Notes: generated from the sequence alone by a model not told the origin. 33,933 bases of DNA from an uncultured Nitrospiraceae bacterium (GCA_964532335.1 CAZHHV010000001.1:3327-37259); one strand, 5' to 3'. Shown: positions 8,094-26,049, counted from the first letter of the stretch. Numbers and translations are program-made.

Positions 8094-8171
8094 GTCATTC
8101 CTGCGGAGGCAGGAATCCAGGCTTGCCATAGAAATAGAAACTCTGGATTCCGCATCAAGTGCGGAATGACA
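8094..8171. repeat. GTCATTCC...GGAATGACA double-hairpin element, nuoM-nuoL junction
   Basis: The sequence is gtcattccTGCggagGCAggaatccag, then a 22 nt spacer, then ctggattccGCAtcaagTGCggaatgaca. The reverse complement of the right arm is identical to the left arm of the element at 17653. Confidence 0.85.
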
Positions 8172-8226
8172 GACTTGTTGATGACTTCTTTAGAGATTTG
8201 ACAATTCATTTTTTCTCCTCATCCAC

Positions 8227-10146
8227 CTACCTCAACAACATCACTGCCATTATTATCAACAAGCCCAGCGCCATTATTGCTGCATAGTGCTGTAACAAAC
8301 CTGTCTGGACTTTCCTCAGAATCCGGCTGAATTGTCCGATCCCTTTTGGGACACCATTAACAATAGCCTCAATAATCCTTGCATCCGTAATCCCGATGAG
8401 TATATTTTTGGCTGTCCAGATTGTTGGCCTCACGATTATAAAACTGTAAAGTTCATCCACATAGTATTTATTCCAGAGTATTTTATATGCGGCATTGAAT
8501 TTCTGAGCGAGCATGACAGGGATATCAGTCTTTGCAAGATAGAATAATGCTGCAAGCCCTATCCCTGAAAAACCTGCGATTACTGATATTGCCATCACCA
8601 TCCATTCCTCTGCATGTGTGCCGTGCGCTTCGGGATGCCCGAGCACAGGTTTTAAAAATTCCGTGAAATGCACGCCTCCTCCAAGCAGATGGGGAATCCC
8701 AATCCATCCTGATGCAACAGCGCCGACGCAGAGAATCACCAATGGTATTGTCATGGCCTTTGGAGATTCATGGAGATGATGTTCCTGTTCGTGCGTGCCC
8801 CGGAATTTTCCGTGGAACGTGAGGAATATAAGCCTGAATGAATAAAATGCTGTAAGGAACGCAACAACAGTCCCGATAGCCCACACGAATTTCCCCACAG
8901 GACTCTGCCCTGAATATGCAAGCCAGAGTATTTCATCCTTGCTGAAGAATCCTGCAAAGCCGGGCACGCCTGCAATGCTCAATGACGCAAAGAGCATTGT
9001 CCAGTATGTAATTGGCATATATTTCTTAATGCCGCCCATCTTCTGAAGGTCAAGCTCTCCTGACATTGCGTGCATTACGCTCCCTGCGCACAGGAAAAGA
9101 AGGGCTTTAAAAAATGCATGTGTGTAAAGATGGAACATTCCTGCGGTGTAAGCTCCGACTCCTGCTGCAAGGAACATATATCCGAGTTGGCTGATGGTTG
9201 AATACGCTATAATCCTTTTTATATCATTCTGTACAAGGCCGATAGTCGCAGCAAAGAGTGATGTTATAGCCCCTGTTAATGCAACCACTATAAGCGCTGT
9301 TTCAGAAAGGCTGAATATCGGACTGCACCTTGCAACGAGGAAAACACCTGCCGTAACCATTGTTGCCGCGTGTATCAGCGCGCTGACAGGGGTAGGACCC
9401 TCCATTGCATCAGGAAGCCAGACATGAAGCGGCATCTGCGCTGACTTCCCAATTGAGCCGCAGAAAAGAAGAAGCGCAATCAATGTCATAAGATGCACGT
9501 CATATCCAAGGAAATTAATTGTTTGTGCTGCAAGGCCCTTTGCCTGTGAAAAGACAGGCTCATAATAAACGGTTCCGAATGTGAGGAATATCATTATTAT
9601 TCCGAGACCGAAGCCGAAGTCGCCAAACCTGTTCACTATAAAAGCCTTTTTGCCTGCGTCAGAGGCTGACTTCTTGTCAAAGTAATATCCTATGAGAAAG
9701 TATGAACACAAGCCGACCCCTTCCCATCCAAAATACAACTGGAGGAAGTTATTAGCCATAACAAGCATGAGCATACAGAAAGTAAATAGACTGAGATATG
9801 CAAAAAACCTGTAATATCCTTTATCTCCATGCATATAACCAACAGAATATATATGTATGAGGGTACTGCAGGTTGTTACAACAACAAGCATTACCGCAGT
9901 AAGCGGGTCAATAAGAAAACCCACAGAGACCTTGAATTCGCCGGAAACAATCCATGAGTAGATGTCTTCATTTATAACCTTGCCTGACAGGACATCAGGC
10001 AGTGTCATTACAGTCACAACCCATGACCCGGCAACCGCAAGTATTGATACCCAGTGGCTATGCTCCTTCAGATACTTCCTGCCGAAAAGAATATTTATCA
10101 AAAAAGCGGCAAGCGGCAGAAATGGTATTAAAAGATAGTTGTTCAT
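8227..10146 (-). CDS. nuoL: NADH-quinone oxidoreductase subunit L
   Basis: It is a 639 aa antiporter-like subunit with a long C-terminal extension, containing MPLHVWLPDAMEGPTPVSALIHAATMV. Confidence 0.95.
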   Translation of the reverse strand: MNNYLLIPFLPLAAFLINILFGRKYLKEHSHWVSILAVAGSWVVTVMTLPDVLSGKVINEDIYSWIVSGEFKVSVGFLIDPLTAVMLVVVTTCSTLIHIYSVGYMHGDKGYYRFFAYLSLFTFCMLMLVMANNFLQLYFGWEGVGLCSYFLIGYYFDKKSASDAGKKAFIVNRFGDFGFGLGIIMIFLTFGTVYYEPVFSQAKGLAAQTINFLGYDVHLMTLIALLLFCGSIGKSAQMPLHVWLPDAMEGPTPVSALIHAATMVTAGVFLVARCSPIFSLSETALIVVALTGAITSLFAATIGLVQNDIKRIIAYSTISQLGYMFLAAGVGAYTAGMFHLYTHAFFKALLFLCAGSVMHAMSGELDLQKMGGIKKYMPITYWTMLFASLSIAGVPGFAGFFSKDEILWLAYSGQSPVGKFVWAIGTVVAFLTAFYSFRLIFLTFHGKFRGTHEQEHHLHESPKAMTIPLVILCVGAVASGWIGIPHLLGGGVHFTEFLKPVLGHPEAHGTHAEEWMVMAISVIAGFSGIGLAALFYLAKTDIPVMLAQKFNAAYKILWNKYYVDELYSFIIVRPTIWTAKNILIGITDARIIEAIVNGVPKGIGQFSRILRKVQTGLLQHYAAIMALGLLIIMAVMLLR

Positions 10147-10150
10147 TTTC

Positions 10151-10453
10151 TCATCCCTTCATCTCATCCATTTCATCAACATGAACAGTGTCCTTGTTCC
10201 TGAACAGCGCGATAATTATCGCAAGCCCTATCGCGGCCTCTGCCGCTGCGACAGTGATTATAAAGATAACAAGAATCTGCCCTCTCATGTTCTGCAGGTA
10301 ATGGCTGAATGCCACAAGGCTGATATTCACTGCATTCAGCATAAGCTCTATTGACATGAACATTATTATGATATTCCTTCTTGTAAGGAACCCGAAGACT
10401 CCTATCATAAAAACCACTGCGCTCAACATCAGATACCAGTTCAAAGGAACCAT
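10151..10453 (-). CDS. nuoK: NADH-quinone oxidoreductase subunit K
   Basis: It is 100 aa with 3 TM segments and a conserved membrane-embedded Glu ([22 protein letters not shown]). Confidence 0.95.
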
Positions 10454-10467
10454 AGCTTGCTCCGCAA

Positions 10468-10529
10468 GAATTCAAAATTTAAAATTGAAAATTCAAAATT
10501 CTTGAATATTGGATATTGAATATTGAATC
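10468..10529. repeat. AT-rich two-armed tandem-repeat hairpin, nuoK-nuoJ junction
   Basis: The left arm has about 8-9 nt units (aaaattcaa / aaattgaaa). The centre is attcaaAATTCttgaat. The right arm has 8 nt units (atattgga / tattgaat). The arms are only partly complementary. Confidence 0.6.
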
Positions 10530-10538
10530 TTCTTTTCA

Positions 10539-11051
10539 TCAGCTTCTTGTCTTCCTTTTCGCGAGTACTATTGCCCCTATAATCGCAACAAGCAGCACAA
10601 GGGAAGCTATTTCAAAAGGAAAAAGGTAATCGGTGTATAACAGAGTTCCAAGCGCCTTTGTATGAGTCTCCTGTTTTATAAATTCAATGGAATATTTTCC
10701 GGCAGGCCCCGGCACAAAAGACTTTACTACACTCAAGACAATCACAAGCAAAGCCGCAGTTACAAAAAGCCCGGCGGGCCATGCGCCTATAAATCTTTTT
10801 ACTTTAAGTTCCTCCCTAAGATTCAGAAGAAGCAAAACAAAAAGGAACAGCACGAGTATTGCTCCTGCATAAACTATAATCTGTATTGCCGCGATAAACT
10901 CGGCGTTCAGGAACAGATAAAGACCTGCAATGTGCAAGAAAAGCAAAAGCATCCACATAACGCTGTGCACAGGGTTGCTTCTCGTAACAACCAGCAGCGA
11001 AAAGATGACTATCGCAGAAGCGTAATATGCAAAAAATAATTCAGGCAACAT
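10539..11051 (-). CDS. nuoJ: NADH-quinone oxidoreductase subunit J
   Basis: It is about 170 aa, hydrophobic, and in the expected operon position. The ATG at 11051 has GGAG 6 nt upstream. The track start at 11054 is a GTG. Confidence 0.92.
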   Translation of the reverse strand: MLPELFFAYYASAIVIFSLLVVTRSNPVHSVMWMLLLFLHIAGLYLFLNAEFIAAIQIIVYAGAILVLFLFVLLLLNLREELKVKRFIGAWPAGLFVTAALLVIVLSVVKSFVPGPAGKYSIEFIKQETHTKALGTLLYTDYLFPFEIASLVLLVAIIGAIVLAKRKTRS

Positions 11052-11068
11052 CACACGCTCCGCTTTTC

Positions 11069-11146
11069 TGTCATTCCAGCAGTTCTTAAGCGGGAATCCA
11101 GAAGATTAATTAAAAGACTGGATTCCGTGTCAAGCACGGAATGACA
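11069..11146. repeat. GTCATTCC...GGAATGACA double-hairpin element, nuoJ-nuoI junction
   Basis: The sequence is tgtcattcc...gggaatccag, then a spacer, then ctggattccGTGtcaagCACggaatgaca. The reverse complement of the right arm is identical (29 nt) to the left arm of the element at 25976. Confidence 0.85.
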
Positions 11147-11186
11147 TTTTTTATTGTCCTTTGTGTCTCTTTGAGATATATGTGTT

Positions 11187-11738
11187 TTATTTTGCATTCT
11201 TAACTCCCCTAAACATCGCCTGGCCTTCATATCCATGGAAGTCCTCTGCTTTCGGTCTCCAGAAATCTCTGAAATATCTCCTGCCTTTCTCTCCTGCAAA
11301 ATATTTATCCCAGTTAGAGAGAAGTTTTTCTTTCGTCATATAAAAAGGCTCTCTTGAATAATCCGAATATTCGTAATGCTCGCTCAATGTGATTGCGCCG
11401 AAAGGACATGCCTCAACGCAGAACCCGCAGTAAATGCATCTGAGAACCTCTATCTCATACCTGTCCACAACCTTTGTATGGTCTTCGCCGTCCGATGTGT
11501 AGATGTATATGCACTTTGACGGGCAGTAAGCTCCGCAGAGTCCGCAGCCAACACACTTCATCCTGCCATTTTCATCCTTCGCAAGCGCATGAAGCCCCCT
11601 GAACCCCGGCTTCACAGGCCTTTTAACCTTGGGATAGCGCCTGGTCACAGCAGGTGTGAACATGGTTTTGAGAGTCAATGCAAGACCCTTCAGAATCTCC
11701 ACAAAAAATATAGTCCTTATTAATTTAGCGGCTGTCAT
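11187..11738 (-). CDS. nuoI: NADH-quinone oxidoreductase subunit I (2x[4Fe-4S] ferredoxin)
   Basis: Two CxxCxxCxxxCP motifs are present (CVGCGLCGAYCP, CIYCGFCVEACP). The start is uncertain: ATG at 11738, or TTG at 11774 in the ORF track. Confidence 0.9.
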   Translation of the reverse strand: MTAAKLIRTIFFVEILKGLALTLKTMFTPAVTRRYPKVKRPVKPGFRGLHALAKDENGRMKCVGCGLCGAYCPSKCIYIYTSDGEDHTKVVDRYEIEVLRCIYCGFCVEACPFGAITLSEHYEYSDYSREPFYMTKEKLLSNWDKYFAGEKGRRYFRDFWRPKAEDFHGYEGQAMFRGVKNAK

Positions 11739-11785
11739 GCTGAATAAAATGAATTGCCTCGTAGTAAGTTGCAAGGCAGAAAGTC

Positions 11786-11861
11786 TGTCATTCCGGCTTG
11801 TCCGGAATCTTTTTTTGTTTTTAAAAAGGATTCCCGACGCGCTTTGCTTGCGGGAATGACA
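11786..11861. repeat. GTCATTCC...GGAATGACA element, nuoI-nuoH junction
   Basis: The sequence is tgtcattccGGcttgtCCggaatc, then a T/A-rich centre, then ggattcccgacgcgctttgcttgcgggaatgaca. Confidence 0.8.
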
Positions 11862-11898
11862 ACTGTTAGGTTTTTAATTGTCGAAGCATTAATGTGTT

Positions 11899-12951
11899 TC
11901 ATACCAATATTTTCACTAATCCAGTTACTACTATATTCAATAAAGCTAATGGGATTAATATCTTCCATCCTATAGCCATAAGCTGGTCATACCTGTATCT
12001 CGGCAGTGTTGCCCTGGCCCAATAATAAAAGAACATAAAGGCATAAACCTTTATCAGAAACCACACAATACCGGGCACATTCAGCAAGAAAGGCATTGCA
12101 TCTGAAATAAACTTCGGTATTGTCCACCCTCCCAAAAAACACAATGCCGCTATAGAAGACATTATCAGCATCGCCGTGTATTCGCCGAGGAAAAATAGTG
12201 CGAACCTGAATCCGCTGTATTCCGTAAAATATCCTGCAACAAGCTCGCTTTCCGCCTCCGGCAGATCAAAAGGGAGCCTGTTCGTCTCTGCGAATGCAGC
12301 AACAACAAATATAAAGAAACCTAAAAACTGCGGTATGGCAAACATTCCTGCAGGATATTGATGCTGTGCCCTGACAATATCAGAAAGGTTAAGGGAACCT
12401 GCCATCATCATAACGCCCACAAGGCTAAGGCCCATTGCAATCTCATAACTGATTACCTGTGATGCTGACCTCAGCCCGCCAAGGAATGAATATTTGGAGT
12501 TTGACGCCCACCCTGATAATATAATTCCATAAGCTCCGAGAGAAGACATTGCAAAAAGAAAAAGCAGGCCTATATTTATGTGAGCTATCACAAAGCCGTC
12601 GAAAAACGGAAGCACTGACAATGACGTGAGAGCCGAAACCATGAATATGACAGGCGCAAGATAGAACAACGGCTTATCTGCATTTGCAGGTATAATGTCT
12701 TCTTTAAAGAACAGTTTTATCCCGTCTGCAATCGGCTGTAATAATCCATGCCATCCTACTTCAATGGGGCCAAGCCTTACCTGCATGTGACCTATTACTT
12801 TGCGCTCCCAGTAAGTTGCATAAGCAACATGAAGAAGCGTTATTCCAAGGACAACGGCGATATTTACGAGAATAATCCCAATATCTATCCCAAGCTTAAT
12901 CATAGGGTTCATTGCAGCCGCATTATCTATAAACTGAAGAATGTCGTTCAT
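11899..12951 (-). CDS. nuoH: NADH-quinone oxidoreductase subunit H
   Basis: It is a 350 aa polytopic protein with ND1/NuoH motifs (ERKVIGHMQVRLGP, FAETNRLPFDLPEAESELVAGY). Its start overlaps the nuoG stop (ATGA). Confidence 0.95.
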   Translation of the reverse strand: MNDILQFIDNAAAMNPMIKLGIDIGIILVNIAVVLGITLLHVAYATYWERKVIGHMQVRLGPIEVGWHGLLQPIADGIKLFFKEDIIPANADKPLFYLAPVIFMVSALTSLSVLPFFDGFVIAHINIGLLFLFAMSSLGAYGIILSGWASNSKYSFLGGLRSASQVISYEIAMGLSLVGVMMMAGSLNLSDIVRAQHQYPAGMFAIPQFLGFFIFVVAAFAETNRLPFDLPEAESELVAGYFTEYSGFRFALFFLGEYTAMLIMSSIAALCFLGGWTIPKFISDAMPFLLNVPGIVWFLIKVYAFMFFYYWARATLPRYRYDQLMAIGWKILIPLALLNIVVTGLVKILV

Positions 12952-15620
12952 AAACCAGCCTTCTCTATAGCTACTGTATTCCCATCCAGAACAGGGGCCC
13001 TTGTAACAGGCTCTATATCATAGCCCATCAATCTATATGCGCTCTTGCCTTCAAAATTATTAGTGAGCATGACTGAAAAATTGTCTAATGCTTTATCGAT
13101 AACCACAGGCAGTTCAATTGAACCAGTCTTTGTGGAAACTCTGACAACTTCACCCTCTTTAAAGGAAAGCTCCTTAGCTGTATCCGGACTTATTCTTACA
13201 ACCGCCTCAGGATATATCTTCACAAGTGCAGGCACCCTTCTGCTCAAAGTGCCTGAATGGAATAGCGGCCTTTCAATTCTAAGATAAAGTTTCCCGTTAA
13301 CACTAAGTCTCTCTGCATTATGCGCCTGAATCTCTTCCATCATATCCCTTAATGGTTCTCCCTTATAAGGATAAATTCCCTCTCCTTTTTCTATATCTTC
13401 ATATGTAAGGTTTTTATGTAAAGGGGATGCCTTGCAAATCTCATTGAATATATCTTCAACATTTGAGCAATCGAACTTCTTACCCATATTCTTTGCGATA
13501 TTAGAGATAATCCTCCAGTCCTCCATCCCCTCCCTGTTTACTGCCTTTCTCACACGCTGTATTCTTCTTTCCATGTTTGTGAATGTGCCGTCCTTCTCAG
13601 CCCAGCTAAGCGCAGGCAGCACAACATCGGCAAGCATCCCTGTTTCTGTAAGAAATATGTCCTGCACAACAAGGAACTCGATATTTTTAAGCGCTGATTC
13701 CGCTGAATTAGAATCAGGAAGATTATAAGCAGGATTTTCACCCATTACATACATTGCTTTCAGAGAGCCGTTTCTCGCAGTGTCTATCATCTCAAATATT
13801 GTAAGCCCTTGTTTTTCAGGTATCTCACTCTTCCAGATGCTTTCGTATCTTCTTCTGAACTCCACATAAGAAACGGGCCTGTATCCTGGCAGTATATCAG
13901 GTGCGCATCCCATGTCAAGAAGTCCCTGCTCATTTGCCCTGTCAGAAAGCAGATAGATCCTTCCGTTAATAAGATAGTTTATTGCTGATAGGAGCAGGAG
14001 CTTGTAGCTTGCTCCATTACTCTGTGTCGTCTCCTTACCTATTGCTATTGATGGGTTTGTGGATTCTGAAAGGATATTCAAAAACTCATTAAACTCTTTC
14101 TCTCCGATATTGCAGATATTCTTCACATCCTCAACAGAGGTGTTTATATCCTTTATCTTTGCCTCAAGTTTAGGATTTGCATCCGAAAGTCCTTTCTTAT
14201 TTTTTAGTGCAGTAACAATACCTTCAAGCAGAACATCTTCTGTGTATAAGACCGGCACAAGCTTTTGTGGACTGAAATATTCAAGACCTTTGAAATTCCC
14301 TATTGTCAGTATGTTACCACCATTTCTTGAACATGCCCTTATCTGAAGCCCGAGGATAGGATTTATTGTTGTTGGGTCTCCGCCGATCACAAATACAAGA
14401 TCAGAATTCGAAAGACCGGATATTATGTTTGCTGTTGCGCCTTGCCCAAAGATATTCTCTATAAAATTCTGGGCGCCTGCAAAGCCTGTCCTTGCAGTGC
14501 TGTCAATGTTATTTGTCCCGAGCGCAACTCTCATAAATTTCTGGAATATATAATTGTCCTCATTCGTGCATCTCGGTGAGGCAATTCCAGCTATTGCAGA
14601 ATTGCCATACTTCTCTTTAATCTCTGATAGTTTTTTTGCAACAAGGCTTATGGCCTCTTCCCATGTAGCTTCTCTGAAGAGAGACGAGAGACGAGTGACG
14701 AGTGACGAGTTTAATTCAGACATCCATTGCTTATCGTCCTTCGTCCTTCGTCCTTCGTCCTTACTTTCCCTCGGAGCTATTCTTATAAGAGGTGTTGTCA
14801 GCCTCTCTTTGCTTCCTACAAACTCATATCCGAATCTCCCCCTCGTACAGAGAAGCCCGTTATTAACAACAGAACCGATTCTGGGAACAACCCTCTTAAT
14901 CACATCATCACGAACCTGAACAATAAGAGTACATCCAACACCGCAATAGGGACAGATTGTCTCTGTCTCATTCACCATCTGCCACGGCCTGTAACTGTGC
15001 CTGTGGAGTCTTGACATGACTGCTCCGACAGGGCATACAGAGATACAGTTCCCGCAGTATTCGCAATCATATTTGCCGCCCGAGAAAGGCTCAATGTGGG
15101 AATGGCCTCCCCTGCTTATAACGTCAATCGCCGAGGCGCCCTGAACCCCCTCGCACATCCTGACGCATCTGGTGCACATAATACATCTTTCCATATTTCG
15201 AACAATAACAGGGTCTTCGAGGCTTTCAGGAACTTTTCTCTTCTTTTCTTTATATCTACCCTTTGCAGGTCCGTATTTTTCTACAAGGTCCTGCAATTCG
15301 CACTCACCTGCCTTATCGCACACAGGACAATCGAGCGGATGGTTAATAAGCAGAAATTCGAGTGTGCCTCTTCTGACATTGGCTATCTGTTCTGTTTCTG
15401 TTCTGACAACCATTCCGTCAGCAACCATAAGAGTACAGGCTGTCTGAAGTCTTGGTATCTTTTCGACTTCGACAAGACACAGCCTGCATCCGCCGTATCT
15501 TCCAAGCTGTTCATGCCAGCAGAGAGTGGGTATCTTTATCCCTGCAGACCTCGCAGCCTCAAGCACAGTGACAGGCTTCTCTAATTTAATCTCTTTGCCG
15601 TTAATGGTGACTGTAATCAT
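12948..15620 (-). CDS. nuoG: NADH-quinone oxidoreductase subunit G (75 kDa type, with non-catalytic molybdopterin-like domain and an in-frame repeat insertion)
   Basis: The N-terminal [2Fe-2S] region (CRLCLVEV), the His-ligated cluster HPLDCPVCDKAGEC, and the 4Fe-4S motifs are present. In the molybdopterin-like domain, STARTGFAG replaces the FDH Cys/Sec-His site. Confidence 0.93.
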   Translation of the reverse strand: MITVTINGKEIKLEKPVTVLEAARSAGIKIPTLCWHEQLGRYGGCRLCLVEVEKIPRLQTACTLMVADGMVVRTETEQIANVRRGTLEFLLINHPLDCPVCDKAGECELQDLVEKYGPAKGRYKEKKRKVPESLEDPVIVRNMERCIMCTRCVRMCEGVQGASAIDVISRGGHSHIEPFSGGKYDCEYCGNCISVCPVGAVMSRLHRHSYRPWQMVNETETICPYCGVGCTLIVQVRDDVIKRVVPRIGSVVNNGLLCTRGRFGYEFVGSKERLTTPLIRIAPRESKDEGRRTKDDKQWMSELNSSLVTRLSSLFREATWEEAISLVAKKLSEIKEKYGNSAIAGIASPRCTNEDNYIFQKFMRVALGTNNIDSTARTGFAGAQNFIENIFGQGATANIISGLSNSDLVFVIGGDPTTINPILGLQIRACSRNGGNILTIGNFKGLEYFSPQKLVPVLYTEDVLLEGIVTALKNKKGLSDANPKLEAKIKDINTSVEDVKNICNIGEKEFNEFLNILSESTNPSIAIGKETTQSNGASYKLLLLSAINYLINGRIYLLSDRANEQGLLDMGCAPDILPGYRPVSYVEFRRRYESIWKSEIPEKQGLTIFEMIDTARNGSLKAMYVMGENPAYNLPDSNSAESALKNIEFLVVQDIFLTETGMLADVVLPALSWAEKDGTFTNMERRIQRVRKAVNREGMEDWRIISNIAKNMGKKFDCSNVEDIFNEICKASPLHKNLTYEDIEKGEGIYPYKGEPLRDMMEEIQAHNAERLSVNGKLYLRIERPLFHSGTLSRRVPALVKIYPEAVVRISPDTAKELSFKEGEVVRVSTKTGSIELPVVIDKALDNFSVMLTNNFEGKSAYRLMGYDIEPVTRAPVLDGNTVAIEKAGL
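14683..14761. repeat. Two-armed heptamer tandem repeat inside nuoG coding sequence
   Basis: There are four heptamers, GACGAGA plus 3x GACGAGT, at 14683-14710. A 23 nt spacer follows, then 4x TCGTCCT at 14734-14761. The GACGA and TCGTC cores are complementary, 5 of every 7 nt. Confidence 0.85.
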
Positions 15621-15667
15621 GATTTATCCAAATCTGCTAATACGTCCCTCTCTAAAACCCCACTTTT

Positions 15668-15731
15668 TGTCATTCCCGCTTGTCGGGAATCTTTCTTTTC
15701 CCAGAAGGATTGCGGACAAGCTGCAATGACA
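15668..15731. repeat. GTCATTCC...GCAATGACA element, nuoG-nuoF junction
   Basis: The sequence is tgtcattcccgcttgtcgggaatctttcttt...ggattgcggacaagctgcaatgaca. It is nearly identical to the copy at 17047. Confidence 0.85.
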
Positions 15732-15743
15732 TGGAAATACTTT

Positions 15744-17003: not shown

Positions 17004-17046
17004 AACCTTAAACTTTTAATAGAAATTCATAAGTGAAACCACGGTT

Positions 17047-17107
17047 TGTCATTCCCGCTTGTCGGGAATCTTTCTTTAGGAAGGATTGCGGACAAGCCGC
17101 AATGACA
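17047..17107. repeat. GTCATTCC...GCAATGACA element, nuoF-nuoE junction (with outer imperfect IR 17029-17042 / 17124-17137)
   Basis: The first 31 nt are identical to the copy at 15668, and the right arm differs at 1 nt. The outer ataagtgaaaccac / gtggtattacttat pair is complementary at 12 of 14 positions. Confidence 0.85.
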
Positions 17108-17168
17108 GAACAAAAATGGTCATGTGGTATTACTTATGGTCTTATTAGTAACTTCTAACTCTTTCCTC

Positions 17169-17633: not shown

Positions 17634-17652
17634 TTCCTTAAATTTTCCTCGC

Positions 17653-17723
17653 CGTCATTCCGCACTTGATGCGGAATCCAGAGCTTCTGATGAGAACTGG
17701 ATTCCCGCCTGCGCGGGAATGAC
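17653..17723. repeat. GTCATTCC...GGAATGACA double-hairpin element, nuoE-nuoD junction
   Basis: The sequence is gtcattccGCActtgaTGCggaatccag, then a 15 nt spacer, then ctggattccCGCctgcGCGggaatgaca. Confidence 0.85.
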
Positions 17724-17740
17724 AAAACTAAAAACTGTAT

Positions 17741-18931: not shown

Positions 18932-18938
18932 AGTTTTT

Positions 18939-18990: not shown

Positions 18991-18994
18991 TTAG

Positions 18995-19528: not shown

Positions 19529-19536
19529 GTTCTTAG

Positions 19537-19602: not shown

Positions 19603-19606
19603 ATTT

Positions 19607-20119: not shown

Positions 20120-20142
20120 TAATATATACCTTACCCCTTTTT

Positions 20143-20226
20143 TTGCGTTTATTGCGTTATAGCGTTATTGCGTTCATTGTTTTCATTATTTTACGCTACA
20201 ACGCTATAACGCTTCACGCCATAACG
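20143..20226. repeat. Two-armed octamer tandem-repeat hairpin, nuoB-nuoA junction
   Basis: The left arm carries GCGTT every 8-9 nt (at 20145, 20154, 20162, 20170). The right arm carries ACGC every 8 nt (at 20193, 20201, 20209, 20217). There is a perfect 13 bp pairing of gcgttatagcgtt (20154-20166) with aacgctataacgc (20200-20212). Confidence 0.8.
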
Positions 20227-20231
20227 ATTTT

Positions 20232-20603: not shown

Positions 20604-20752
20604 AGATTTATTTTTAATCTAAAATCTCAATAAGATAATTTAAGTTCTCAATCGTTGTCAAGGGGAAAAGCATTCAGGTTTCATAATCTCGATTTTACCT
20701 GTTATTTTAATTACTTGCATAAATTCTCAGAAATGGTATAAATTTCTTAGGT
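20604..20752. promoter_or_regulatory. Divergent control region between nuoA (minus) and the histidine kinase gene (plus)
   Basis: This is a 149 nt AT-rich spacer. Weak candidates are TTGCAT-16-TATAAA at 20715-20742 on plus, and TTGACA-18-TATCTT on minus (plus coordinates 20661-20632). Neither is strong. Confidence 0.3.
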
Positions 20753-21748: not shown

Positions 21749-22333
21749 TTTCCAGAAGGCAGTCAGGAAAAGGAAGACATAAATATAATTATTGAGCAGG
21801 CAAATAGATGCTCTAATATCATAAAGGGGCTTCTTGGATTTGCCAGGGCAACATCAACAGATAAGACCCTTACAAGCATAAATGATGTTGTGCTAAGCGC
21901 TCTAAATATGGTAAGGCATAAGGCAGACTTTTTCAATATAAAGATTGTCTTAAATCTTGATGAGACTCTGCCGCCTGTGATGGCAAATGCATCCCAGCTC
22001 CAACAGGTATTTTTAAATATGATTATAAATGCAGCAGATGTAATGGAAAGCGTAGGGATATTGACCATTGCCACACGAAGGCAGACGAAAGACGGAATGC
22101 CCTTTACAGAGGTAGAATTTAGAGATACAGGACAGGGCATATCTGAGGAGAACATGTCAAAGATATTTGAACCATTCTTTACAACAAAACCAGTCGGGAA
22201 AGGCACAGGTCTTGGTCTTGCTGTAAGCCATGGTATCATTCAGGACCATGGAGGCAAGATACTGGTGAGAAGCAAATTAGGAGAAGGAACAAGTTTCTTT
22301 GTAAGATTTCCAGCATATGAGGGTAAAGTATGA
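21749..22333 (+). CDS. Same histidine kinase, C-terminal part (second DHp helix plus HATPase_c with N, G1, G2 boxes), in the same frame directly after the TGA
   Basis: The frame (mod 3) is the same as that of 20753-21748. The translation continues FPEGSQEKEDINIIIEQANRCSNIIKGLLGFAR..., with N box QVFLNMIINAADV, G1 DTGQGI and G2 GKGTGLGLAVS. There is no credible independent start; the first in-frame start codon is a GTG at 21890. The stop overlaps the next gene (ATGA). Confidence 0.75.
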   Translation, partial: FPEGSQEKEDINIIIEQANRCSNIIKGLLGFARATSTDKTLTSINDVVLSALNMVRHKADFFNIKIVLNLDETLPPVMANASQLQQVFLNMIINAADVMESVGILTIATRRQTKDGMPFTEVEFRDTGQGISEENMSKIFEPFFTTKPVGKGTGLGLAVSHGIIQDHGGKILVRSKLGEGTSFFVRFPAYEGKV

Positions 22334-22707
22334 GCAAAGGAAAGATTCTTGTTATAGATGATGAAGACATAGTTCTTATAAGTTGTAAGAGGGCGCTTGA
22401 GCCTGAAGGTTATGATGTAAAAACAGTCAAAAGCGGAGTGGAAGGCTTGAAGACTGCTGAGAATGAGGATTTCGATATTGTGATGACAGACCTGAAGATG
22501 CCTGACGTGGATGGCATAGAGGTTTTACGGATTATCAAAGAAAGAAAACCTGCCGTTGAAGTTGTTATCATGACAGGCTATCAAACTGTAGAGACAGCTG
22601 TTAAGGCTATAAAGCTCGGCGCATTTGATTATATTGAAAAACCGTTCACCCCTGAACAGATAATCTCTGTGATAAAGAATGCCATTGCTCATGAATCAAA
22701 AATGTAA
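22330..22707 (+). CDS. Single-domain response regulator (CheY-like receiver)
   Basis: It has DD at the N-terminus, the phospho-acceptor motif MTDLKMPDVDG, MTGY and EKPFTPE, and no output domain. It is translationally coupled to the kinase. Confidence 0.9.
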   Translation: MSKGKILVIDDEDIVLISCKRALEPEGYDVKTVKSGVEGLKTAENEDFDIVMTDLKMPDVDGIEVLRIIKERKPAVEVVIMTGYQTVETAVKAIKLGAFDYIEKPFTPEQIISVIKNAIAHESKM

Positions 22708-22719
22708 CCTGAGGTATAG

Positions 22720-22800
22720 ATGAATAGGACTAAAGTCCTCGTGATAGATAATGAAGATATTGTAAGGGCAGGATATTGTGGATTTAGTTCAGAAAGTTAA
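22720..22800 (+). pseudogene. Decayed receiver-domain remnant (26 codons)
   Basis: It translates to MNRTKVLVIDNEDIVRAGYCGFSSES*. The first 15 residues parallel the N-termini of the three intact receivers (KILVIDDEDIV...), after which the frame terminates. Confidence 0.4.
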
Positions 22801-22832
22801 TGTAGTATGTAACGCAGAAAGGAGGCATAATC

Positions 22833-23606
22833 ATGGGGGAAAAAGGGAAAATATTGGTGCTGGATGATGACCCTGTTGTTACTCTGAGCTGTAAAAGGAT
22901 TTTAGGTGCAGAAGGTTACAACATCATAACAGTAGACAGAGGCGAAGACGCAATTAAAAAGGTCTCCAATGAGGAATTTGACCTCCTGATATCTGATATA
23001 AGACTGCCTGATGTTAGCGGAATTACTGTTTTAAAAGAATCAAAGATTATCCAGCCAAAACTTGACGTTGTCATAATTACAGGTTATCCCACATTAGAGG
23101 ATGCCAAGGAGTCTGTGAGGCTCGGCGCGCTCGAGTTTATCGAAAAGCCCTTTACTCCCGAGTTTATGGTAAATGTTGCCAAAAAAGTATTTGACAGCAG
23201 GGGATGGATATTAAGGAAGGCGTTTATAGACGATTTCAGAAATGATATCGTTTCACTGAGGGATACTGAAAACCCGGTGATATTTTATAAGGAAGGAACA
23301 TGGGCAAGACCGCTGAAAAATGAAATATGGGAGATCGGGTGCGATGTAAGATACTGGCTGTTAGCAGGCCAACTCACATATATTGAGCTTTCTGAAAAGA
23401 TTGATATGCTTATAGCAGGGGAGCCGTTTGGCAAAATCTTATCAAGCACAGGACAGACCGAGAACCTTATTTCACCAATAACAGGCAGGGTTAAAGAGAT
23501 CAACATTAATGCTAATACTGCTATGAGCGCACTTATAAGGGATAACCTCAGTGAGGGGTGGTTGCTCTGGCTTGCGAGGATTGAACTGATAACAACATTG
23601 CCTTAA
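22833..23606 (+). CDS. Response-regulator receiver fused to a glycine-cleavage-H-like (lipoyl-fold) domain lacking the lipoyl lysine
   Basis: The REC domain has DDD, ISDIRLPDVSG (D55), ITGY and EKPFTPE. The C-terminal roughly 105 aa, FYKEGTWARP..EIGCDVRYWLLAGQLTYIEL...ISPITGRVKEIN...SEGWLLWLA, align by eye to GcvH (YtkeHeW..vGit..aq..lGdivfveLp...sPvsGevvevN...GWl.ki). The SD is AGGAGG. Confidence 0.8.
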   Translation: MGEKGKILVLDDDPVVTLSCKRILGAEGYNIITVDRGEDAIKKVSNEEFDLLISDIRLPDVSGITVLKESKIIQPKLDVVIITGYPTLEDAKESVRLGALEFIEKPFTPEFMVNVAKKVFDSRGWILRKAFIDDFRNDIVSLRDTENPVIFYKEGTWARPLKNEIWEIGCDVRYWLLAGQLTYIELSEKIDMLIAGEPFGKILSSTGQTENLISPITGRVKEININANTAMSALIRDNLSEGWLLWLARIELITTLP

Positions 23607-23663
23607 CCCTGTTAGAGAACTTCCTCTAACGGGATAAAAATTTGACAAGCGAAGGAGAAACTT

Positions 23664-24497
23664 ATGTTTAAAATCTTAAAAAAGGAAGAGCTATCAGAAA
23701 GCATAACCCTATTTGATATTGATGCGAAAGATATTGCAAAAAAGGCAAAGCCAGGCAATTTTATTGTTCTTAAGATTCATGAGGAGGGAGAGAGGATACC
23801 TTTAACTATTGCTGATTTTGATAGGGAAAAAGGAACCATAACTACTGTATTCCAGAAGGTTGGAAAGTCAACCTATCACCTTGGAGCATTAAATGAAGGT
23901 GATTTTATAACTGATGTTATAGGCCCTCTCGGTATTCCTTCCCATATAGAAAATTTTGGAAAGGTTGTCTGTATAGGTGGTGGAGTTGGAATTGCGCCTA
24001 TTTACCCGATAACAAAGGCATTAAAAGAGGCAGGTAATATAATAATTTCTATCATAGGCGCAAGGACAAAGTCACTCCTTTTCTGGGAAGAAAAAATGCG
24101 CAAGGTATCAGATGAACTAATTATTACGACAGATGATGGCTCTTACGGCAGAAAGGCAGTGGTAACTATTCCATTGGAAGAACTTCTGAAGGAGGGCAAT
24201 ATAAATTTAGTAGTCGCTATCGGCCCTGCTATTATGATGAAATTTGCCTGTAAGACAACAGAAAAATACAATGTAAAAACTATAGTTAGTTTAAATTCAA
24301 TCATGATTGATGCAACAGGGATGTGCGGCGGCTGTAGAGTAGGGGTAGGAGGGGAGACAAAGTTTTGCTGTGTTGACGGCCCTGAATTTGATGGACATAA
24401 GGTTGATTTTGATCTGCTTATGGAAAGACAGAAGATGTATCTTGATGAGGAAAGGTTAGCCATGCAAAGGTATAGAGAAAAAATGGGGGTGAAATGA
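23664..24497 (+). CDS. nfnA: NADH-dependent reduced ferredoxin:NADP+ oxidoreductase subunit A (SudB/PyrK-like FAD/[2Fe-2S] protein)
   Basis: It is near-collinear with the Thermotoga NfnA sequence as I recall it (MFKIL.K.EL...KPGNF..L.IHE.GERIPLT.AD.D.EKGTIT...GMCG.CRV.VGGE.KF.CVDGPEFD.H.VD). The SD is AAGGAG. Confidence 0.85.
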   Translation: MFKILKKEELSESITLFDIDAKDIAKKAKPGNFIVLKIHEEGERIPLTIADFDREKGTITTVFQKVGKSTYHLGALNEGDFITDVIGPLGIPSHIENFGKVVCIGGGVGIAPIYPITKALKEAGNIIISIIGARTKSLLFWEEKMRKVSDELIITTDDGSYGRKAVVTIPLEELLKEGNINLVVAIGPAIMMKFACKTTEKYNVKTIVSLNSIMIDATGMCGGCRVGVGGETKFCCVDGPEFDGHKVDFDLLMERQKMYLDEERLAMQRYREKMGVK

Positions 24498-25945
24498 GCA
24501 TGGAGGAAAAAGAGGAGAAAAAAGAGGAAAAAAAACCAAAAAAGAGAGTAAAGATGAGGGAACAGGACCCTCTGGTGAGGGCGAGGAATTTTGATGAGGT
24601 TCCTTATGGATACACCCCGGATGATGCAGTTGAGGAGGCATCAAGATGCCTGCAGTGCAAGAAACCTGCCTGTAGAGAAGGGTGCCCTGTAGAGATAGAT
24701 ATACCGCCATTTATACAGCTTATCACCAAGCATGATTTCATTGGCGCTGCAAGAAATATCCGTGAAAAAAACAGCCTTCCTGCTGTTTGTGGAAGGGTAT
24801 GTCCACAGGAGATTCAATGTGAAGCCTTATGTATCTTAGGGAAAAAGGCAGAGTCTGTTGCCATAGGCAACCTTGAGCGATTTGCAGCAGACTATGACAG
24901 GGTTCATGGAAAGTTTGAGATGCCTGAGATGGCAGAGCCAAATGGCAGAAAGGTTGCTATTATCGGCTCAGGTCCTGCCGGATTGACAGCAGCAGGCGAC
25001 CTCAGAAAAAAGGGTTATGAGGTTGCTGTTTTTGAGGCGCTCCATGAACTGGGTGGTGTTCTTGTCTATGGCATCCCTGAGTTCAGACTTCCCAAGAAGA
25101 TTGTCAAGGCTGAAATATCATATCTTGAAAGGATAGGGGTAAGGTTTCAAACTAATGCAGTGATTGGAAAGCTCTATACAGTTGATGAACTATTGAACAG
25201 CCACGGATATGATGCCTGCTATATTGGAATAGGCGCAGGGTTGCCTATGTTTATGGGAATACCAGGAGAAAACCTAAACGGTATTTACTCTGCGAATGAA
25301 TTTTTAACAAGGGCAAATCTAATGAAGGCATATCTTTTCCCTGAGTATGATACACCGATAAAGAGAGGCAAAAAGGTTGCTGTATTCGGCGGCGGCAATG
25401 TCGCTATGGATGCTGCAAGGGTGGCCCTCAGACTTGGTGCAGATAAGGTCTATCTTATATACAGGCGTTCTGAGGCTGAGATGCCGGCAAGAAAGGCAGA
25501 AGTTCATCATGCACATGAGGAGGGAATAGAATTCTTGCTATTAACAAATCCAACAAGATTTATTGATGACGGCAAGGGGAATGTCTGTGGGGTTGAATGT
25601 ATAAAGATGGAATTAGGAGAGCCTGACGAATCCGGCAGAAGGAAACCGATTCCTATTAAAGGCAGTGAATTTCAGATTGAGATAGATGTTGCAATACCTG
25701 CACTCGGAACAAGGGCAAATCCAATTTTAACAAAAACCGTGCCTGATTTAAAATTAAACAAGAGGGGGTATATTGTAGCTGAAGAGGAAACAGGCATGAC
25801 CTCAAAACCAGGCGTCTTTGCAGGCGGAGATATAGTTACAGGCTCTGCAACGGTTATCCTGGCTATGGGCGCAGGAAGAAAGGCAGGAAGGGCGATTAAT
25901 GAATATATAAAATGGAAATACTGGAACTTTAGCATGAGTAAATGA
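24494..25945 (+). CDS. nfnB: NADH-dependent reduced ferredoxin:NADP+ oxidoreductase subunit B (GltD/SudA-like)
   Basis: The N-terminal motif NFDEVPYGYTPDDAVEEASRCLQCKKPAC..GCPV is present, along with a 2x[4Fe-4S] region and the dinucleotide folds KVAIIGSGPAGL and VAVFGGGNVAMD. It overlaps the nfnA stop (ATGA). Confidence 0.85.
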   Translation: MSMEEKEEKKEEKKPKKRVKMREQDPLVRARNFDEVPYGYTPDDAVEEASRCLQCKKPACREGCPVEIDIPPFIQLITKHDFIGAARNIREKNSLPAVCGRVCPQEIQCEALCILGKKAESVAIGNLERFAADYDRVHGKFEMPEMAEPNGRKVAIIGSGPAGLTAAGDLRKKGYEVAVFEALHELGGVLVYGIPEFRLPKKIVKAEISYLERIGVRFQTNAVIGKLYTVDELLNSHGYDACYIGIGAGLPMFMGIPGENLNGIYSANEFLTRANLMKAYLFPEYDTPIKRGKKVAVFGGGNVAMDAARVALRLGADKVYLIYRRSEAEMPARKAEVHHAHEEGIEFLLLTNPTRFIDDGKGNVCGVECIKMELGEPDESGRRKPIPIKGSEFQIEIDVAIPALGTRANPILTKTVPDLKLNKRGYIVAEEETGMTSKPGVFAGGDIVTGSATVILAMGAGRKAGRAINEYIKWKYWNFSMSK

Positions 25946-25975
25946 GTAATACAACTTTCGCAGATGATTTTTGGT

Positions 25976-26049
25976 TGTCATTCCGTGCTTGACACGGAAT
26001 CCAGTTCCACAATATATCCCTCTGGATTCCCGCTTTCGCGGGAATGACA
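25976..26049. repeat. GTCATTCC...GGAATGACA double-hairpin element downstream of nfnB (nested inside a perfect 12 bp outer IR, 25952-25963 / 26069-26080)
   Basis: The sequence is tgtcattccGTGcttgaCACggaatccag, then a spacer, then ctggattccCGCtttcGCGggaatgaca. The outer pair is caactttcgcag / ctgcgaaagttg. Confidence 0.85.

What the first reader, a model, noticed from the sequence alone, without database searches (positions are those of the whole stretch)
8094..26049. GTCATTCC...GGAATGAC element family: modular arms shared between copies, and compensatory changes preserving hairpins
Eight copies lie in the window, at 6469, 8094, 11069, 11786, 15668, 17047, 17653 and 25976. Several observations follow directly from the sequence.

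(a) Arms are exchanged between copies. The reverse complement of the right arm at 8094 equals the left arm at 17653 over 28 nt. The reverse complement of the right arm at 11069 equals the left arm at 25976 over 29 nt. The copies at 15668 and 17047 share an identical 31 nt left end.

(b) Each arm is itself a hairpin of the form ATTCC-NNN-loop-NNN-GGAAT. The variable triplets co-vary so that pairing is kept: GCA/TGC, GTG/CAC, CGC/GCG, TGC/GCA, and for the copy at 11786 a 2 nt GG/CC pair.

Compensatory variation argues that the structure itself is under selection, at either the RNA or the DNA level, rather than these being decaying junk. No transposase is present, so the elements would be non-autonomous (MITE- or REP-like).
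Basis: seen in the sequence. Interest (0 to 1): 0.6.

Follow-up and report, generated by a model that had tools for sequence, protein, structure and literature searches.

The report
Hairpin-pair DNA repeats of the Ssn/CGTC type
The eight GTCATTCC...GGAATGAC elements are real copies of a hairpin-forming repeat family already known from Neisseria, Rickettsia and others (CGTC-tagged REPs, or Ssn-related motifs). It is abundant in this Nitrospirota genome, where it fills seven gene junctions of the complex I (nuo) operon.

Summary
GTCATTCC occurs 14 times in the window against 1.1 expected. The genome holds about 284 hairpin arms against 3-10 in shuffles, and 69 inverted doublets.

The "exchanged arms" are mostly one asymmetric doublet seen in both orientations. 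A doublet joins two different arm classes, A1+A2 or Bc+Bg, and their stem variants combine freely.

The compensatory changes hold up. Variable stem positions pair in 49/50, 31/31 and 105/106 copies, and in 139/147 arms from 118 public loci.

The kind is known. Tag (C/T)GTC, an AT-started stem, a 4-5 nt loop, a CCA tail, no target duplication, and placement between co-directional or convergent genes all match CGTC-tagged REPs (Di Nocera 2013). Two window arms are 27/28 identical to the Neisseria NTS, which is cut as ssDNA by the small GIY-YIG nuclease SsnA (Chenal 2025).

In related genomes, 22 Ssn-type genes are flanked by these arms, and the Ssn clades track arm class. This assembly has no such gene. 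Its single RAYT-like gene is flanked by a different palindrome.

An earlier follow-up of this scan, on another piece of this genome, had already linked its mini-hairpins to the same literature.

Verdict: new member of a known kind, with extra variants. Interest is moderate.

The parts
6469..6534 (.). Doublet at the nuoM|nuoN junction. The left arm is irregular (TGTCATTCCGAGCATTGCGAGGAATCTCG). The right arm is class C (rc TGTCATTGCGAGGCAAAGCCGAAGCAATCTCA).
   Evidence: Congeners G001, G003, G008 and G010 have no element at this junction.
8093..8171 (.). Class A doublet at the nuoL|nuoM junction. It has an A1 arm (TGC-GGAG-GCA, + strand, 8093-8120), a spacer, and an A2 arm (GCA-CTTGA-TGC, - strand, 8143-8171).
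   Evidence: As DNA it folds into two separate hairpins, z = -4.6. In G001, G003 and G008 the two genes are 4 nt apart.
11069..11146 (.). Class A doublet at the nuoI|nuoJ junction. It has a long-loop A1 variant (+, 11069-11101) and an A2 arm (GTG-CTTGA-CAC, -, 11118-11146).
   Evidence: The right arm is 100% complementary to 25976-26005. Congeners carry unrelated sequence at this junction.
11786..11861 (.). Class B doublet at the nuoH|nuoI junction. It has a B arm (GG-CTTGT-CC, +) and a long-loop B variant (rc TGTCATTCCCGCAAGCAAAGCGCGTCGGGAATCCTT).
   Evidence: It folds as one long hairpin, z = -5.3. It is absent in G001 and G010.
15668..15731 (.). Class B doublet at the nuoF|nuoG junction. 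It has a Bc arm (TTCC CG-CTTGT-CG) and a Bg arm (TTGC, one mismatch).
   Evidence: G010 holds a different class C-like pair at this junction.
17047..17107 (.). Class B doublet at the nuoE|nuoF junction. It has a Bc arm (CG/CG) and a Bg arm (TTGC GG/CC). It is nested between an outer inverted pair at 17028-17042 and 17124-17138.
   Evidence: It folds as one long hairpin, z = -6.0. G010 has an empty site.
17653..17724 (.). Class A doublet at the nuoD|nuoE junction, in the opposite orientation to 8093. It has an A2 arm (+) and an A1 arm (rc TGTCATTCCCGCGCAGGCGGGAATCCAG).
   Evidence: The A1 arm matches the published SRM pattern and 27 of 28 positions of the Neisseria NTS consensus (PMC11893778). 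The fold is a four-way junction, z = -4.5.
25976..26049 (.). Class A doublet between two + strand genes (24494-25945 and 26120-26989). It has an A2 arm (GTG/CAC, +) and an A1 arm (rc TGTCATTCCCGCGAAAGCGGGAATCCAG).
   Evidence: The A1 arm matches the SRM pattern. z = -5.2.

Best explanation
The elements are CGTC-tagged repetitive extragenic palindromes, the family also called dRS3/NTS in Neisseria, RPE-4/-6 in Rickettsia, and Ssn-related motifs (SRM).

Anatomy. Each arm has an unpaired 5' tag (C/T)GTC, a 7-9 bp stem that starts A-T/T-A, a 4-5 nt loop and a short tail. Two arms of different class sit inverted, with tags outward and tails inward, around a 10-50 nt spacer.

Most likely mechanism. 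The arms act as single-stranded DNA hairpins. Small single-domain GIY-YIG nucleases of the Ssn type recognise them strand-specifically and cut ssDNA just 5' of the tag. An arm-ssn-arm cassette is the autonomous-looking unit, and the short doublets are its non-autonomous companions. They have accumulated in transcribed, promoter-free spacers, here in seven nuo junctions.

Shown here: the anatomy and copy number; pairing kept by compensation; no target duplication; presence or absence at the same junctions among congeners; arm-flanked ssn genes in related genomes, with Ssn clade matching arm class.

Taken from the literature: Ssn binds and cuts NTS-bearing ssDNA.

Inferred and unproven, also in the literature: that Ssn spreads the repeats.

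This assembly has no Ssn-clade gene. Its copies are therefore either orphans or served by a gene that was not assembled.
For: Anatomy. The tag is conserved up to the T at position -3 and no further (T 231 and C 33 of 280). Tails are CCAG (94 arms) or CYTT. The classes and their stems are listed. These features match the description of CGTC REPs in PMC3733652: the tag may read TGTC, stems are 8-9 bp beginning with AT, loops are 4-5 nt, the tail is CCA, inverted dimers predominate and are often heterodimers, and no transposase is associated.

Match to NTS. The NTS consensus is CGTCATTCCCGCGMAVGCGGGAATCYRG. The window arms at 17697-17724 and 26022-26049 differ from it only at the first base.

No target duplication. 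0 of 67 doublets have one for k >= 3.

Location. 43 doublets lie between co-directional genes, 8 between convergent genes and 1 between divergent genes.

Empty sites. Congeners have empty sites at the same junctions.

Relatives. Of 30 hits to an Ssn-type query, 27 have an arm within 150 nt, most within 50 nt. Twenty-two arm-flanked full-length proteins form a supported clade (96/97) that excludes four unflanked GIY-YIG proteins. Clades B (100/99), C (95/91) and A3 (95/91) each go with one arm class. The labels need 4 changes on the tree, which is the minimum, against 15.6 in shuffles.

Genome level. Nine of the 10 genomes with no class A or B arm lack an Ssn-clade gene. Nine of the 12 genomes with 40 or more arms have one. 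All 4 genomes with a clade B ssn have class B arms. None of the 17 genomes without class B arms has a clade B ssn.
Against: G000 has about 284 arms but no Ssn-clade gene. It has only an 87-aa GIY-YIG outside that clade, not flanked by arms, plus a 602-aa GIY-YIG-containing frame that I take to be UvrC. G003 (99% complete, 30 contigs, 89 arms) and G007 also lack one.

Only 30 of 284 arms fit the published SRM search pattern.

Membership of the relatives' proteins in cd10448 could not be tested. Pfam gives only GIY-YIG, and no Ssn structure is in the PDB.

The ssn cassettes carry two arms of one class, while the doublets are heterodimers, so doublets are not simple deletion derivatives.

Insertions differ from empty sites by extra nucleotides on both sides, so the exact mobile unit is undefined.

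Related genomes are not independent samples. No cleavage or mobility was measured.
Confidence: 0.72

Rival explanations
1. These are REP/REPIN elements mobilised by a RAYT (REP-associated tyrosine transposase of the IS200/IS605 type), as in E. coli and Pseudomonas.
For: The doublet architecture, the absence of target duplication and the ssDNA-hairpin logic resemble REPINs. The genome has one Y1_Tnp gene (C48:2829-3494, E 6.6e-14). Its best NCBIfam hit is the REP-associated tyrosine transposase model (68.9 bits).
Against: The tag is (C/T)GTC, not GTAG. The Y1 gene scores below the NCBIfam cut-off of 80. It is flanked by its own 21-nt inverted repeat AAATGGGGACAGCGCCCATTT, which occurs only 3 times in the genome, and not by GTCATTCC arms. 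None of the 12 Y1 loci fetched from relatives holds an arm. G033 has 81 arms and no Y1 match, while G010 has a Y1 gene and no class A arm. Di Nocera et al. also found no Y1 gene flanked by CGTC repeats.
Confidence: 0.07
2. These are miniature inverted-repeat transposable elements (MITEs) moved by a DDE transposase that recognises the TGTCATTCC... terminal inverted repeats.
For: The elements are 57-100 bp with terminal inverted repeats. They are present or absent between congeners. Copy number is patchy, from 0 to 382.
Against: No target-site duplication was found: 0 of 67 for k = 3-8, and fewer than expected for k = 2. Each terminal repeat is itself a compensated hairpin. Single arms are common (146 unpaired). 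No insertion sequence with these ends was seen, and there is no IS110 gene. The only gene found between such arms is ssn.
Confidence: 0.04
3. The hairpins are kept mainly because they work for the host at the RNA level. They would act as intercistronic mRNA stabilisers, processing sites or attenuators that set subunit ratios in operons such as nuo. How they spread would be secondary.
For: 51 of the 52 doublets that could be placed lie in regions that are transcribed (between co-directional or convergent genes), and only 1 lies between divergent genes, against 5-9 expected. Seven nuo junctions are occupied. A ribosome-binding site remains between the element and the next start codon. G-T intermediates such as TGC/GCG occur. 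Class B arms are followed by T-rich tails.
Against: Congeners run the same nuo operon with 4-nt junctions and no element. Class A orientation relative to transcription is random, 6 against 5. Copy number ranges from 0 to 382 among relatives, so there is no general requirement. According to PMC11893778, SsnA does not bind RNA. This reading is compatible with the main one as a secondary, exapted role.
Confidence: 0.15

Closest known systems
CGTC-tagged REP superfamily, families CGTC-1 to -4 (Di Nocera, De Gregorio & Rocco 2013, PMC3733652). It includes Neisseria dRS3 and Rickettsia RPE-4/RPE-6.
   Same: The tag is CGTC, often TGTC. The stem begins with A-T/T-A pairs. A1 has 8 bp and a 4-nt loop, like CGTC-1. 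A2 has 8 bp and a 5-nt loop, like CGTC-2. A3 has 9 bp and a 5-nt loop, like CGTC-3/4. The tail is CCA. Inverted dimers are often heterodimers, with 20-100 bp spacers that have complementary ends. The elements lie between co-directional or convergent ORFs. No transposase is associated.
   Different: The host phylum is Nitrospirota, which is not among the five phyla listed in that paper. Class B has a 7-bp stem and a CYTT tail. Class B doublets pair a TTCC arm with a TTGC arm. Class C (TTGCGAGG...GAAGCAAT) has an internal loop. Seven junctions of one operon are occupied.
NTS / Ssn-related motifs with the SsnA GIY-YIG ssDNA nuclease (Chenal et al. 2025, PMC11893778)
   Same: Two window arms are 27/28 identical to the NTS consensus. 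In related genomes, single-domain GIY-YIG genes of 95-110 aa are flanked on both sides by inverted arms (the NTS-ssnA-NTS architecture). Genomes rich in arms mostly carry such a gene.
   Different: This genome's assembly has no Ssn-clade gene. Only 30 of 284 arms fit the published SRM pattern. At least four arm classes, each with its own Ssn clade, coexist in one order, and up to two Ssn clades occur in one genome. Nuclease activity and cd10448 membership were not tested here.
REP/REPIN/BIME elements with RAYT (E. coli, Pseudomonas)
   Same: These are also short palindromes with an unpaired tag. They form inverted doublets that fold as hairpins, have no target duplication, lie in intercistronic positions, and have a dedicated ssDNA-hairpin enzyme flanked by its own repeats.
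   Different: The tag here is not GTAG, and the partner enzyme is a GIY-YIG nuclease, not a HUH Y1 transposase. The RAYT-like gene in this genome is flanked by an unrelated inverted repeat.
Neisseria Correia elements and other bacterial MITEs
   Same: They are of similar size, have terminal inverted repeats, insert in intergenic and operon positions, and are co-transcribed.
   Different: Correia elements make a TA target duplication and derive from DDE-type IS ends. Here there is no duplication, and the ends are compensated hairpins.

Membership tests
CGTC-tagged REPs (Di Nocera 2013) | An unpaired 5' tetranucleotide tag, CGTC (TGTC allowed) | tested here: met
   Upstream of CATT, position -3 is T in 231 and C in 33 of 280 arms, position -2 is G in 264, and position -1 is T in 266. 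There is no conservation beyond -4.
CGTC-tagged REPs (Di Nocera 2013) | A stem of 8-9 bp starting with A-T and T-A, and a loop of 4-5 nt | tested here: met
   A1 is 8 bp with a 4-nt loop, A2 is 8 bp with 5 nt, and A3 is 9 bp with 5 nt. Class B is an exception, with 7 bp and 5 nt.
CGTC-tagged REPs (Di Nocera 2013) | A 3-nt tail fitting CCA | tested here: inconclusive
   Met for class A, where 94 arms end in CCAG. Not met for class B, whose tails are CCTT (65 arms) or CTTT (51 arms).
CGTC-tagged REPs (Di Nocera 2013) | Mostly inverted dimers, intergenic, between unidirectional or convergent ORFs, with no flanked transposase gene | tested here: met
   There are 69 inverted doublets. Of these, 43 are between co-directional genes, 8 convergent and 1 divergent. 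The Y1 gene is flanked by another palindrome.
NTS / SRM-Ssn system (Chenal 2025) | Sequence fits the NTS consensus or the SRM degenerate pattern HGTCWYN(0-2)YYVSBRHN(0-5)WNVSBRGN(0-2)RNCYNB | tested here: inconclusive
   The genome has 43 SRM matches against 3-5 in shuffles, 2 of them in the window. Only 30 of 284 arms fit, and there are 0 strict NTS matches because the first base is T, not C.
NTS / SRM-Ssn system (Chenal 2025) | A small single-domain GIY-YIG gene (ssn) flanked by the repeats on both sides | tested here: not met
   Not met in this genome. It has one 87-aa GIY-YIG without flanking arms, outside the Ssn clade. It is met in relatives, where 22 arm-flanked genes were found in 15 genomes. 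The assembly is 95% complete in 233 contigs, with a minimum contig length of 1.5 kb.
NTS / SRM-Ssn system (Chenal 2025) | The protein belongs to CDD family cd10448 and cuts ssDNA next to the motif | not testable with these tools
   No CDD search was available. Pfam gives only PF01541. No Ssn structure is in the PDB, and the best hit is the UPF0213 protein 1zg2 at E 0.007.
REP/REPIN with RAYT | A GTAG tag, and a RAYT gene flanked by the same REPs | tested here: not met
   The tag is (C/T)GTC. The only Y1 gene has different flanks. No arm is present in 12 Y1 loci of relatives.
MITE (DDE transposon derivative) | A target-site duplication flanking the terminal inverted repeats | tested here: not met
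   0 of 67 doublets have a duplication for k = 3, 4, 5, 6 or 8, at every boundary offset tried.

The most novel reading that the evidence does not exclude
Thermodesulfovibrionia may carry a set of at least four co-evolving pairs of Ssn nuclease and hairpin class (A1, A2/A3, B, C). The arm-ssn-arm cassettes would then be true mobile elements whose GIY-YIG enzyme acts as the transposase. That would be a transposition chemistry not yet demonstrated in bacteria. The heterodimeric doublets would be dual-specificity passengers that avoid forming one perfect long palindrome. Genomes such as this one would keep hundreds of orphan copies after losing the enzymes, and some copies would be exapted inside operons.
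Probability: 0.2. Interest if true: 0.75.

Novelty: new member of a known kind. Interest (0 to 1): 0.38.

Why it matters
The finding is explained by existing literature, so its main value lies in placement and extension.

First, it puts the CGTC/SRM repeat family in Nitrospirota (Thermodesulfovibrionia). Density there is high: about 284 arms in 2 Mb, and seven junctions of the complex I operon are occupied.

Second, the published SRM search pattern finds only about a tenth of the arms here, so surveys based on it undercount the family.

Third, within one bacterial order, distinct Ssn clades are each flanked by their own arm class. That is a ready-made panel of candidate enzyme/site pairs for the ssDNA-cutting applications proposed for Ssn, and a natural system for asking how a 95-residue protein reads a hairpin.

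Fourth, genomes with many arms and no Ssn gene bear on the open question of how these repeats spread and persist.

Tried and rejected
- Rfam gave no match in the window.
- No IS110-family transposase is present in the genome.
- RAYT as partner was rejected.
- A target-site duplication was sought at eight boundary offsets and six lengths, and none was found.
- I tested whether empty sites always keep a TGTCAT(T) target. Junctions e6469 and e17047 suggested this. It did not hold at blocks 27, 30 and 50, where the filled sites carry extra, unrelated nucleotides on both sides. I dropped the idea.
- I looked for a strand bias of arms along the complete genome G034. An apparent all-plus run was an artefact of how the list was sorted. 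One search shows the strands mixed, and without origin and terminus positions nothing can be concluded.
- tblastn of the relatives' Ssn proteins against this genome found only the divergent 87-aa gene.
- The flanks of that 87-aa GIY-YIG gene hold only a partial arm end (CAGGGAATGAC).
- The supplementary tables of PMC11893778 are not held. I could not check whether Nitrospirota genomes are already listed there.


Full report

Yes. GTCATTCC occurs 14 times in the window against 1.09 expected, and no shuffle reaches 14. Thirteen occurrences belong to eight elements. Their exact extents are 6469-6534, 8093-8171, 11069-11146, 11786-11861, 15668-15731, 17047-17107, 17653-17724 and 25976-26049. The hit at 823-830 is a chance match in coding sequence.

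- 8136-8170 against 17654-17688: 97% complementary over 35 nt.
- 11117-11146 against 25976-26005: 100% complementary over 30 nt.
- 15660-15698 against 17039-17077: 95% identical over 39 nt.

The window lies in a 2.05 Mb, 43% GC, 233-contig genome. Earlier notes of this scan place it in Nitrospirota, class Thermodesulfovibrionia.

Genome-wide I find 284 arms of the form CATT[C/G]C-stem-loop-stem-G[C/G]AAT, against 3-10 in shuffled genomes. They include 69 inverted doublets.

**2. Anatomy**

Conservation outside the hairpin stops at the T of TGTCATT. At position -3, T occurs in 231 and C in 33 of 280 arms. Further out there is only a weak pyrimidine bias.

The arms fall into classes:
- A1: 8-bp stem, 4-nt loop (mostly GAAA), tail CCAG.
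- A2: 8-bp stem, loop CTTGA, tail CCAG.
- A3: 9-bp stem, loops such as ATTTA or CTTGA, tail CCAG.
- B: 7-bp stem, loop CTTGT, tail CYTT. It comes with either TTCC/GGAA (Bc) or TTGC/GCAA (Bg) at the stem base.
- C: TTGCGAGG...GAAGCAAT, with an internal loop.

Doublets have tags outward and tails inward, and they are almost always heterodimers. There are 27 Bc+Bg and 16 A1+A2, against 4 A1+A1 and 1 Bc+Bc. Classes A and B essentially never mix.

The copy at 17653 is the 8093-type doublet (A1, spacer, inverted A2) in the opposite orientation, and 25976 relates to 11069 in the same way.

Arms are modular in a weaker sense. Among the 15 A1+A2 doublets tabulated, the A1 stems TGC, CGC, CGT and CAC occur with the A2 stems GCA, GTG and GGG in seven combinations.

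Folded as single-stranded DNA, class A doublets give two separate arm hairpins. In one case they form a four-way junction with the tag and tail helices. Class B doublets give one long imperfect hairpin. The z-scores run from -4.5 to -6.0.

In a Bc/Bg pair, the two arms differ at four positions. These positions are compensated within each arm but mismatched between the arms. Each arm therefore folds, while the doublet is not a perfect long palindrome (my reading of the sequences).

**3. Compensation**

To avoid circularity, I searched again with patterns that leave the variable positions free. The variable pairs are fully paired as follows:
- A1: 49 of 50 copies (147 Watson-Crick cells, 2 G-T, 1 mismatch).
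- A2: 31 of 31 copies.
- B: 105 of 106 copies.

The distinct fully compensated variants are TGC/GCA, CGT/ACG, CGC/GCG, CAC/GTG and TGT/ACA for A1. For A2 they are GCA/TGC, GTG/CAC and GGG/CCC. For B they are CG/CG, GG/CC, GA/TC and AG/CT. A few G-T intermediates are present (TGC/GCG, CGC/GTG).

An independent sample comes from 118 loci of other public genomes, retrieved with NN left free. There, 139 of 147 class B arms are fully paired. The shuffle mean is 74 and the maximum of 1000 shuffles is 91. A fifth variant, TG/CA, also appears.

So the stem is maintained. Two caveats apply. Only four or five independent variants exist per class, because copies are amplified from few founders. Shuffling the distinct variants of this genome alone gives weak significance (7/2000, 157/2000 and 85/2000). 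Maintenance may also reflect what the element needs to be copied rather than a host function.

**4. Where they sit, and whether they move**

Pfam identifies the minus-strand genes of the region as nuoN, M, L, J, I, H, G, F, E and D. Doublets occupy the junctions M|N, L|M, I|J, H|I, F|G, E|F and D|E.

Genome-wide, using crude gene calls, 43 doublets lie between co-directional genes, 8 between convergent genes and 1 between divergent genes. Divergent junctions make up 10% of junctions and 16.5% of intergenic bases. Orientation relative to transcription is random for class A (6 against 5). It is mildly skewed for class B (14 against 5).

No target-site duplication exists: 0 of 67 for k = 3 or more, at eight boundary offsets.

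Congeners at about 90% identity have empty sites. In G001, G003 and G008, nuoL and nuoM are 4 nt apart, and nuoM/nuoN carry no element. G010 lacks the E|F element. Further empty sites occur elsewhere in the genome.

The filled sites differ from the empty ones by the doublet plus 6-60 unrelated nucleotides on either side. The exact inserted unit therefore cannot be defined at this divergence.

Copy number of class A arms among 40 relatives runs from 0 to 382. It is patchy even within the genus. Class B runs from 0 to 122, and this genome has the most.

**5. What it is**

A note from an earlier follow-up on another piece of this genome pointed to CGTC-tagged REPs and Ssn-related motifs (e1-4381121). 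I checked both papers.

Di Nocera et al. 2013 (PMC3733652) describe CGTC REPs as follows. The tag is often TGTC. Stems are 8-9 bp, almost always beginning with AT. Loops are 4-5 nt and the tail is CCA. Inverted dimers predominate, with heterodimers common, and spacers are 20-100 bp. The repeats lie between unidirectional and convergent ORFs. G-T pairs are frequent, and no transposase gene is flanked by them. Class A here fits every point. Class B departs in stem length and tail. That paper lists five host phyla, and Nitrospirae is not among them.

Chenal et al. 2025 (PMC11893778) define the Neisseria NTS as CGTCATTCCCGCGMAVGCGGGAATCYRG. They show that SsnA, a 94-residue single-domain GIY-YIG protein, binds it and cuts upstream of it, only in ssDNA and only on one strand. 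They also show that ssnA homologues are typically flanked by such motifs.

The window arms at 17697-17724 and 26022-26049 differ from the NTS consensus only in the first base. Their degenerate SRM pattern gives 43 matches in this genome against 3-5 in shuffles. It captures only 30 of my 284 arms.

**6. The partner gene**

This genome has one Y1 transposase gene (C48:2829-3494). Its best model is the REP-associated tyrosine transposase, at 68.9 bits against a cut-off of 80. It is flanked by its own 21-nt inverted repeat AAATGGGGACAGCGCCCATTT, present only 3 times in the genome. None of 12 Y1 loci from relatives holds an arm. G033 has 81 arms and no Y1 gene. RAYT is therefore not the partner.

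The genome has two GIY-YIG matches. One is a 602-aa open frame that I take to be UvrC, from its length and domain only. The other is an 87-aa protein without flanking arms.

In relatives the picture is different. Using a small GIY-YIG protein of congener G008 as query, I found 30 hits in 16 of the 40 related genomes. Of these, 27 have an arm within 150 nt, most within 50 nt. The usual layout is arm(+) - gene - arm(-). The gene commonly reads into the downstream arm, so its last residues and its TGA stop are supplied by the arm and tag.

In a maximum-likelihood tree, the 22 arm-flanked full-length proteins form a clade (96/97). It excludes four unflanked GIY-YIG proteins, among them the 87-aa protein of this genome, which sits on a long branch. 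Inside the clade, proteins flanked by class B arms (100/99), class C arms (95/91) and A3 arms (95/91) are each monophyletic. A1-flanked proteins form an unresolved grade. The arm-class labels need 4 changes, the minimum possible, against a mean of 15.6 in shuffles.

At genome level:
- 9 of the 10 relatives with no class A or B arm lack an Ssn-clade gene. The exception, G029, has class C arms around its gene.
- 9 of the 12 genomes with 40 or more arms have one.
- All four genomes with a clade B gene have class B arms.
- None of the 17 genomes without class B arms has a clade B gene.

Related genomes are not independent, so these counts are descriptive. The three arm-rich genomes without the gene (G000, G003, G007) are all in one genus.

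For G000, non-assembly is possible. The minimum contig length is 1.5 kb, and 17 contig ends lie within 150 nt of an arm against about 10 expected. G003 is 99% complete in 30 contigs, so real loss is also plausible. The read-level test could not be run.

**7. Mechanism and rivals**

Best reading, confidence about 0.7: the arms are ssDNA hairpin sites of Ssn-type GIY-YIG nucleases. Arm-ssn-arm cassettes are the autonomous-looking units. The doublets are non-autonomous companions that accumulate where they do least harm, namely in transcribed spacers without promoters.

That Ssn actually spreads the repeats is an inference. It is also unproven in the literature.

The heterodimer rule fits the explanation Di Nocera et al. 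offer, that perfect long palindromes are unstable. It also raises the possibility that each doublet presents sites for two different Ssn specificities, one on each strand.

A host-level RNA role, such as differential stability of nuo cistrons, cannot be excluded as a secondary effect. It is not required, since congeners lack the elements.

MITE and RAYT readings fail their defining tests.

**8. Novelty and score**

The kind is known, and the closest members are nearly identical in sequence. What is new:
- The host group.
- The B and C variants with their own Ssn clades.
- The poor recall of the published search pattern here.
- The density in one essential operon.
- The arm-rich, Ssn-free genomes.

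I rate it a new member of a known kind, with interest about 0.38.

Noticed in passing
G000:C48:2829-3494 (L001 1204-1869, - strand), with flanks at L001 1187-1207 and 1909-1929: A RAYT-like Y1 transposase gene (221 aa) is flanked by its own 21-nt inverted repeat AAATGGGGACAGCGCCCATTT. That palindrome occurs only 3 times in the genome. It resembles the 'TIRYT' arrangement of Di Nocera et al. and is unrelated to the GTCATTCC arms.
   Followed up: partly
G000 genome-wide, for example the arms listed (GCACTTG-TCTACGACTCGTAGAGA-TGC). None lies in the window.: A second small palindrome, CTACGA[CG]TCGTAG, has 23 copies in the genome. It sits nested inside the loop of at least four A2-type arms, so one repeat is inserted into another.
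   Followed up: partly
window 17028-17042 and 17124-17138, around the doublet at 17047-17107: Some doublets (8 of 69) lie inside a larger inverted pair of a third repeat, roughly YTACTAAkrAGwyCATAAGTRArrCCAC. This recalls the 'target palindromes' reported around some CGTC dimers. The search pattern used was loose: 89 hits against 61 in a shuffle.
   Followed up: partly
Relatives' loci L062-L090, for example L066 (G022), L062 (G008) and L074 (G005): The ssn open reading frames run into the downstream arm. The C-termini are ...SGFLPTQE, ...SGFPDRVGE and ...GRIPDKPE. The TGA stop is part of the AATGACA tag, so arm and gene overlap.
   Followed up: yes
nuo junctions of congeners: L015 (G001) and L017 (G008), aligned to window 11030-11270 and 11700-11935: Where this genome has hairpin doublets, congeners carry unrelated simple tandem repeats (GGTGAATA-like units in G001, GCGCAGTA x4 in G008). 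The same operon junctions therefore collect different repeats in different species.
   Followed up: no
window 32620-32668 and 14675-14713: There is a tandem heptamer TCGTCAA of about 7 copies at 32620-32668. A complementary-looking GAGACGA/GTGACGA run lies at 14675-14713, inside the nuoG reading frame. The two are 82% complementary over 39 nt.
   Followed up: no
L092-L209 (public genome contigs): Exact class B arms occur mostly in Nitrospirota/Thermodesulfovibrionia MAGs, including Ca. Magnetominusculus and Ca. Sulfobium. They also occur on single contigs labelled Nitrospinota, Chlorobiales, Gemmatimonadota, Fibrobacteria, Ignavibacteria, Deferribacteres and Dehalococcoidia. The cause could be horizontal spread or mis-binning.
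   Followed up: no
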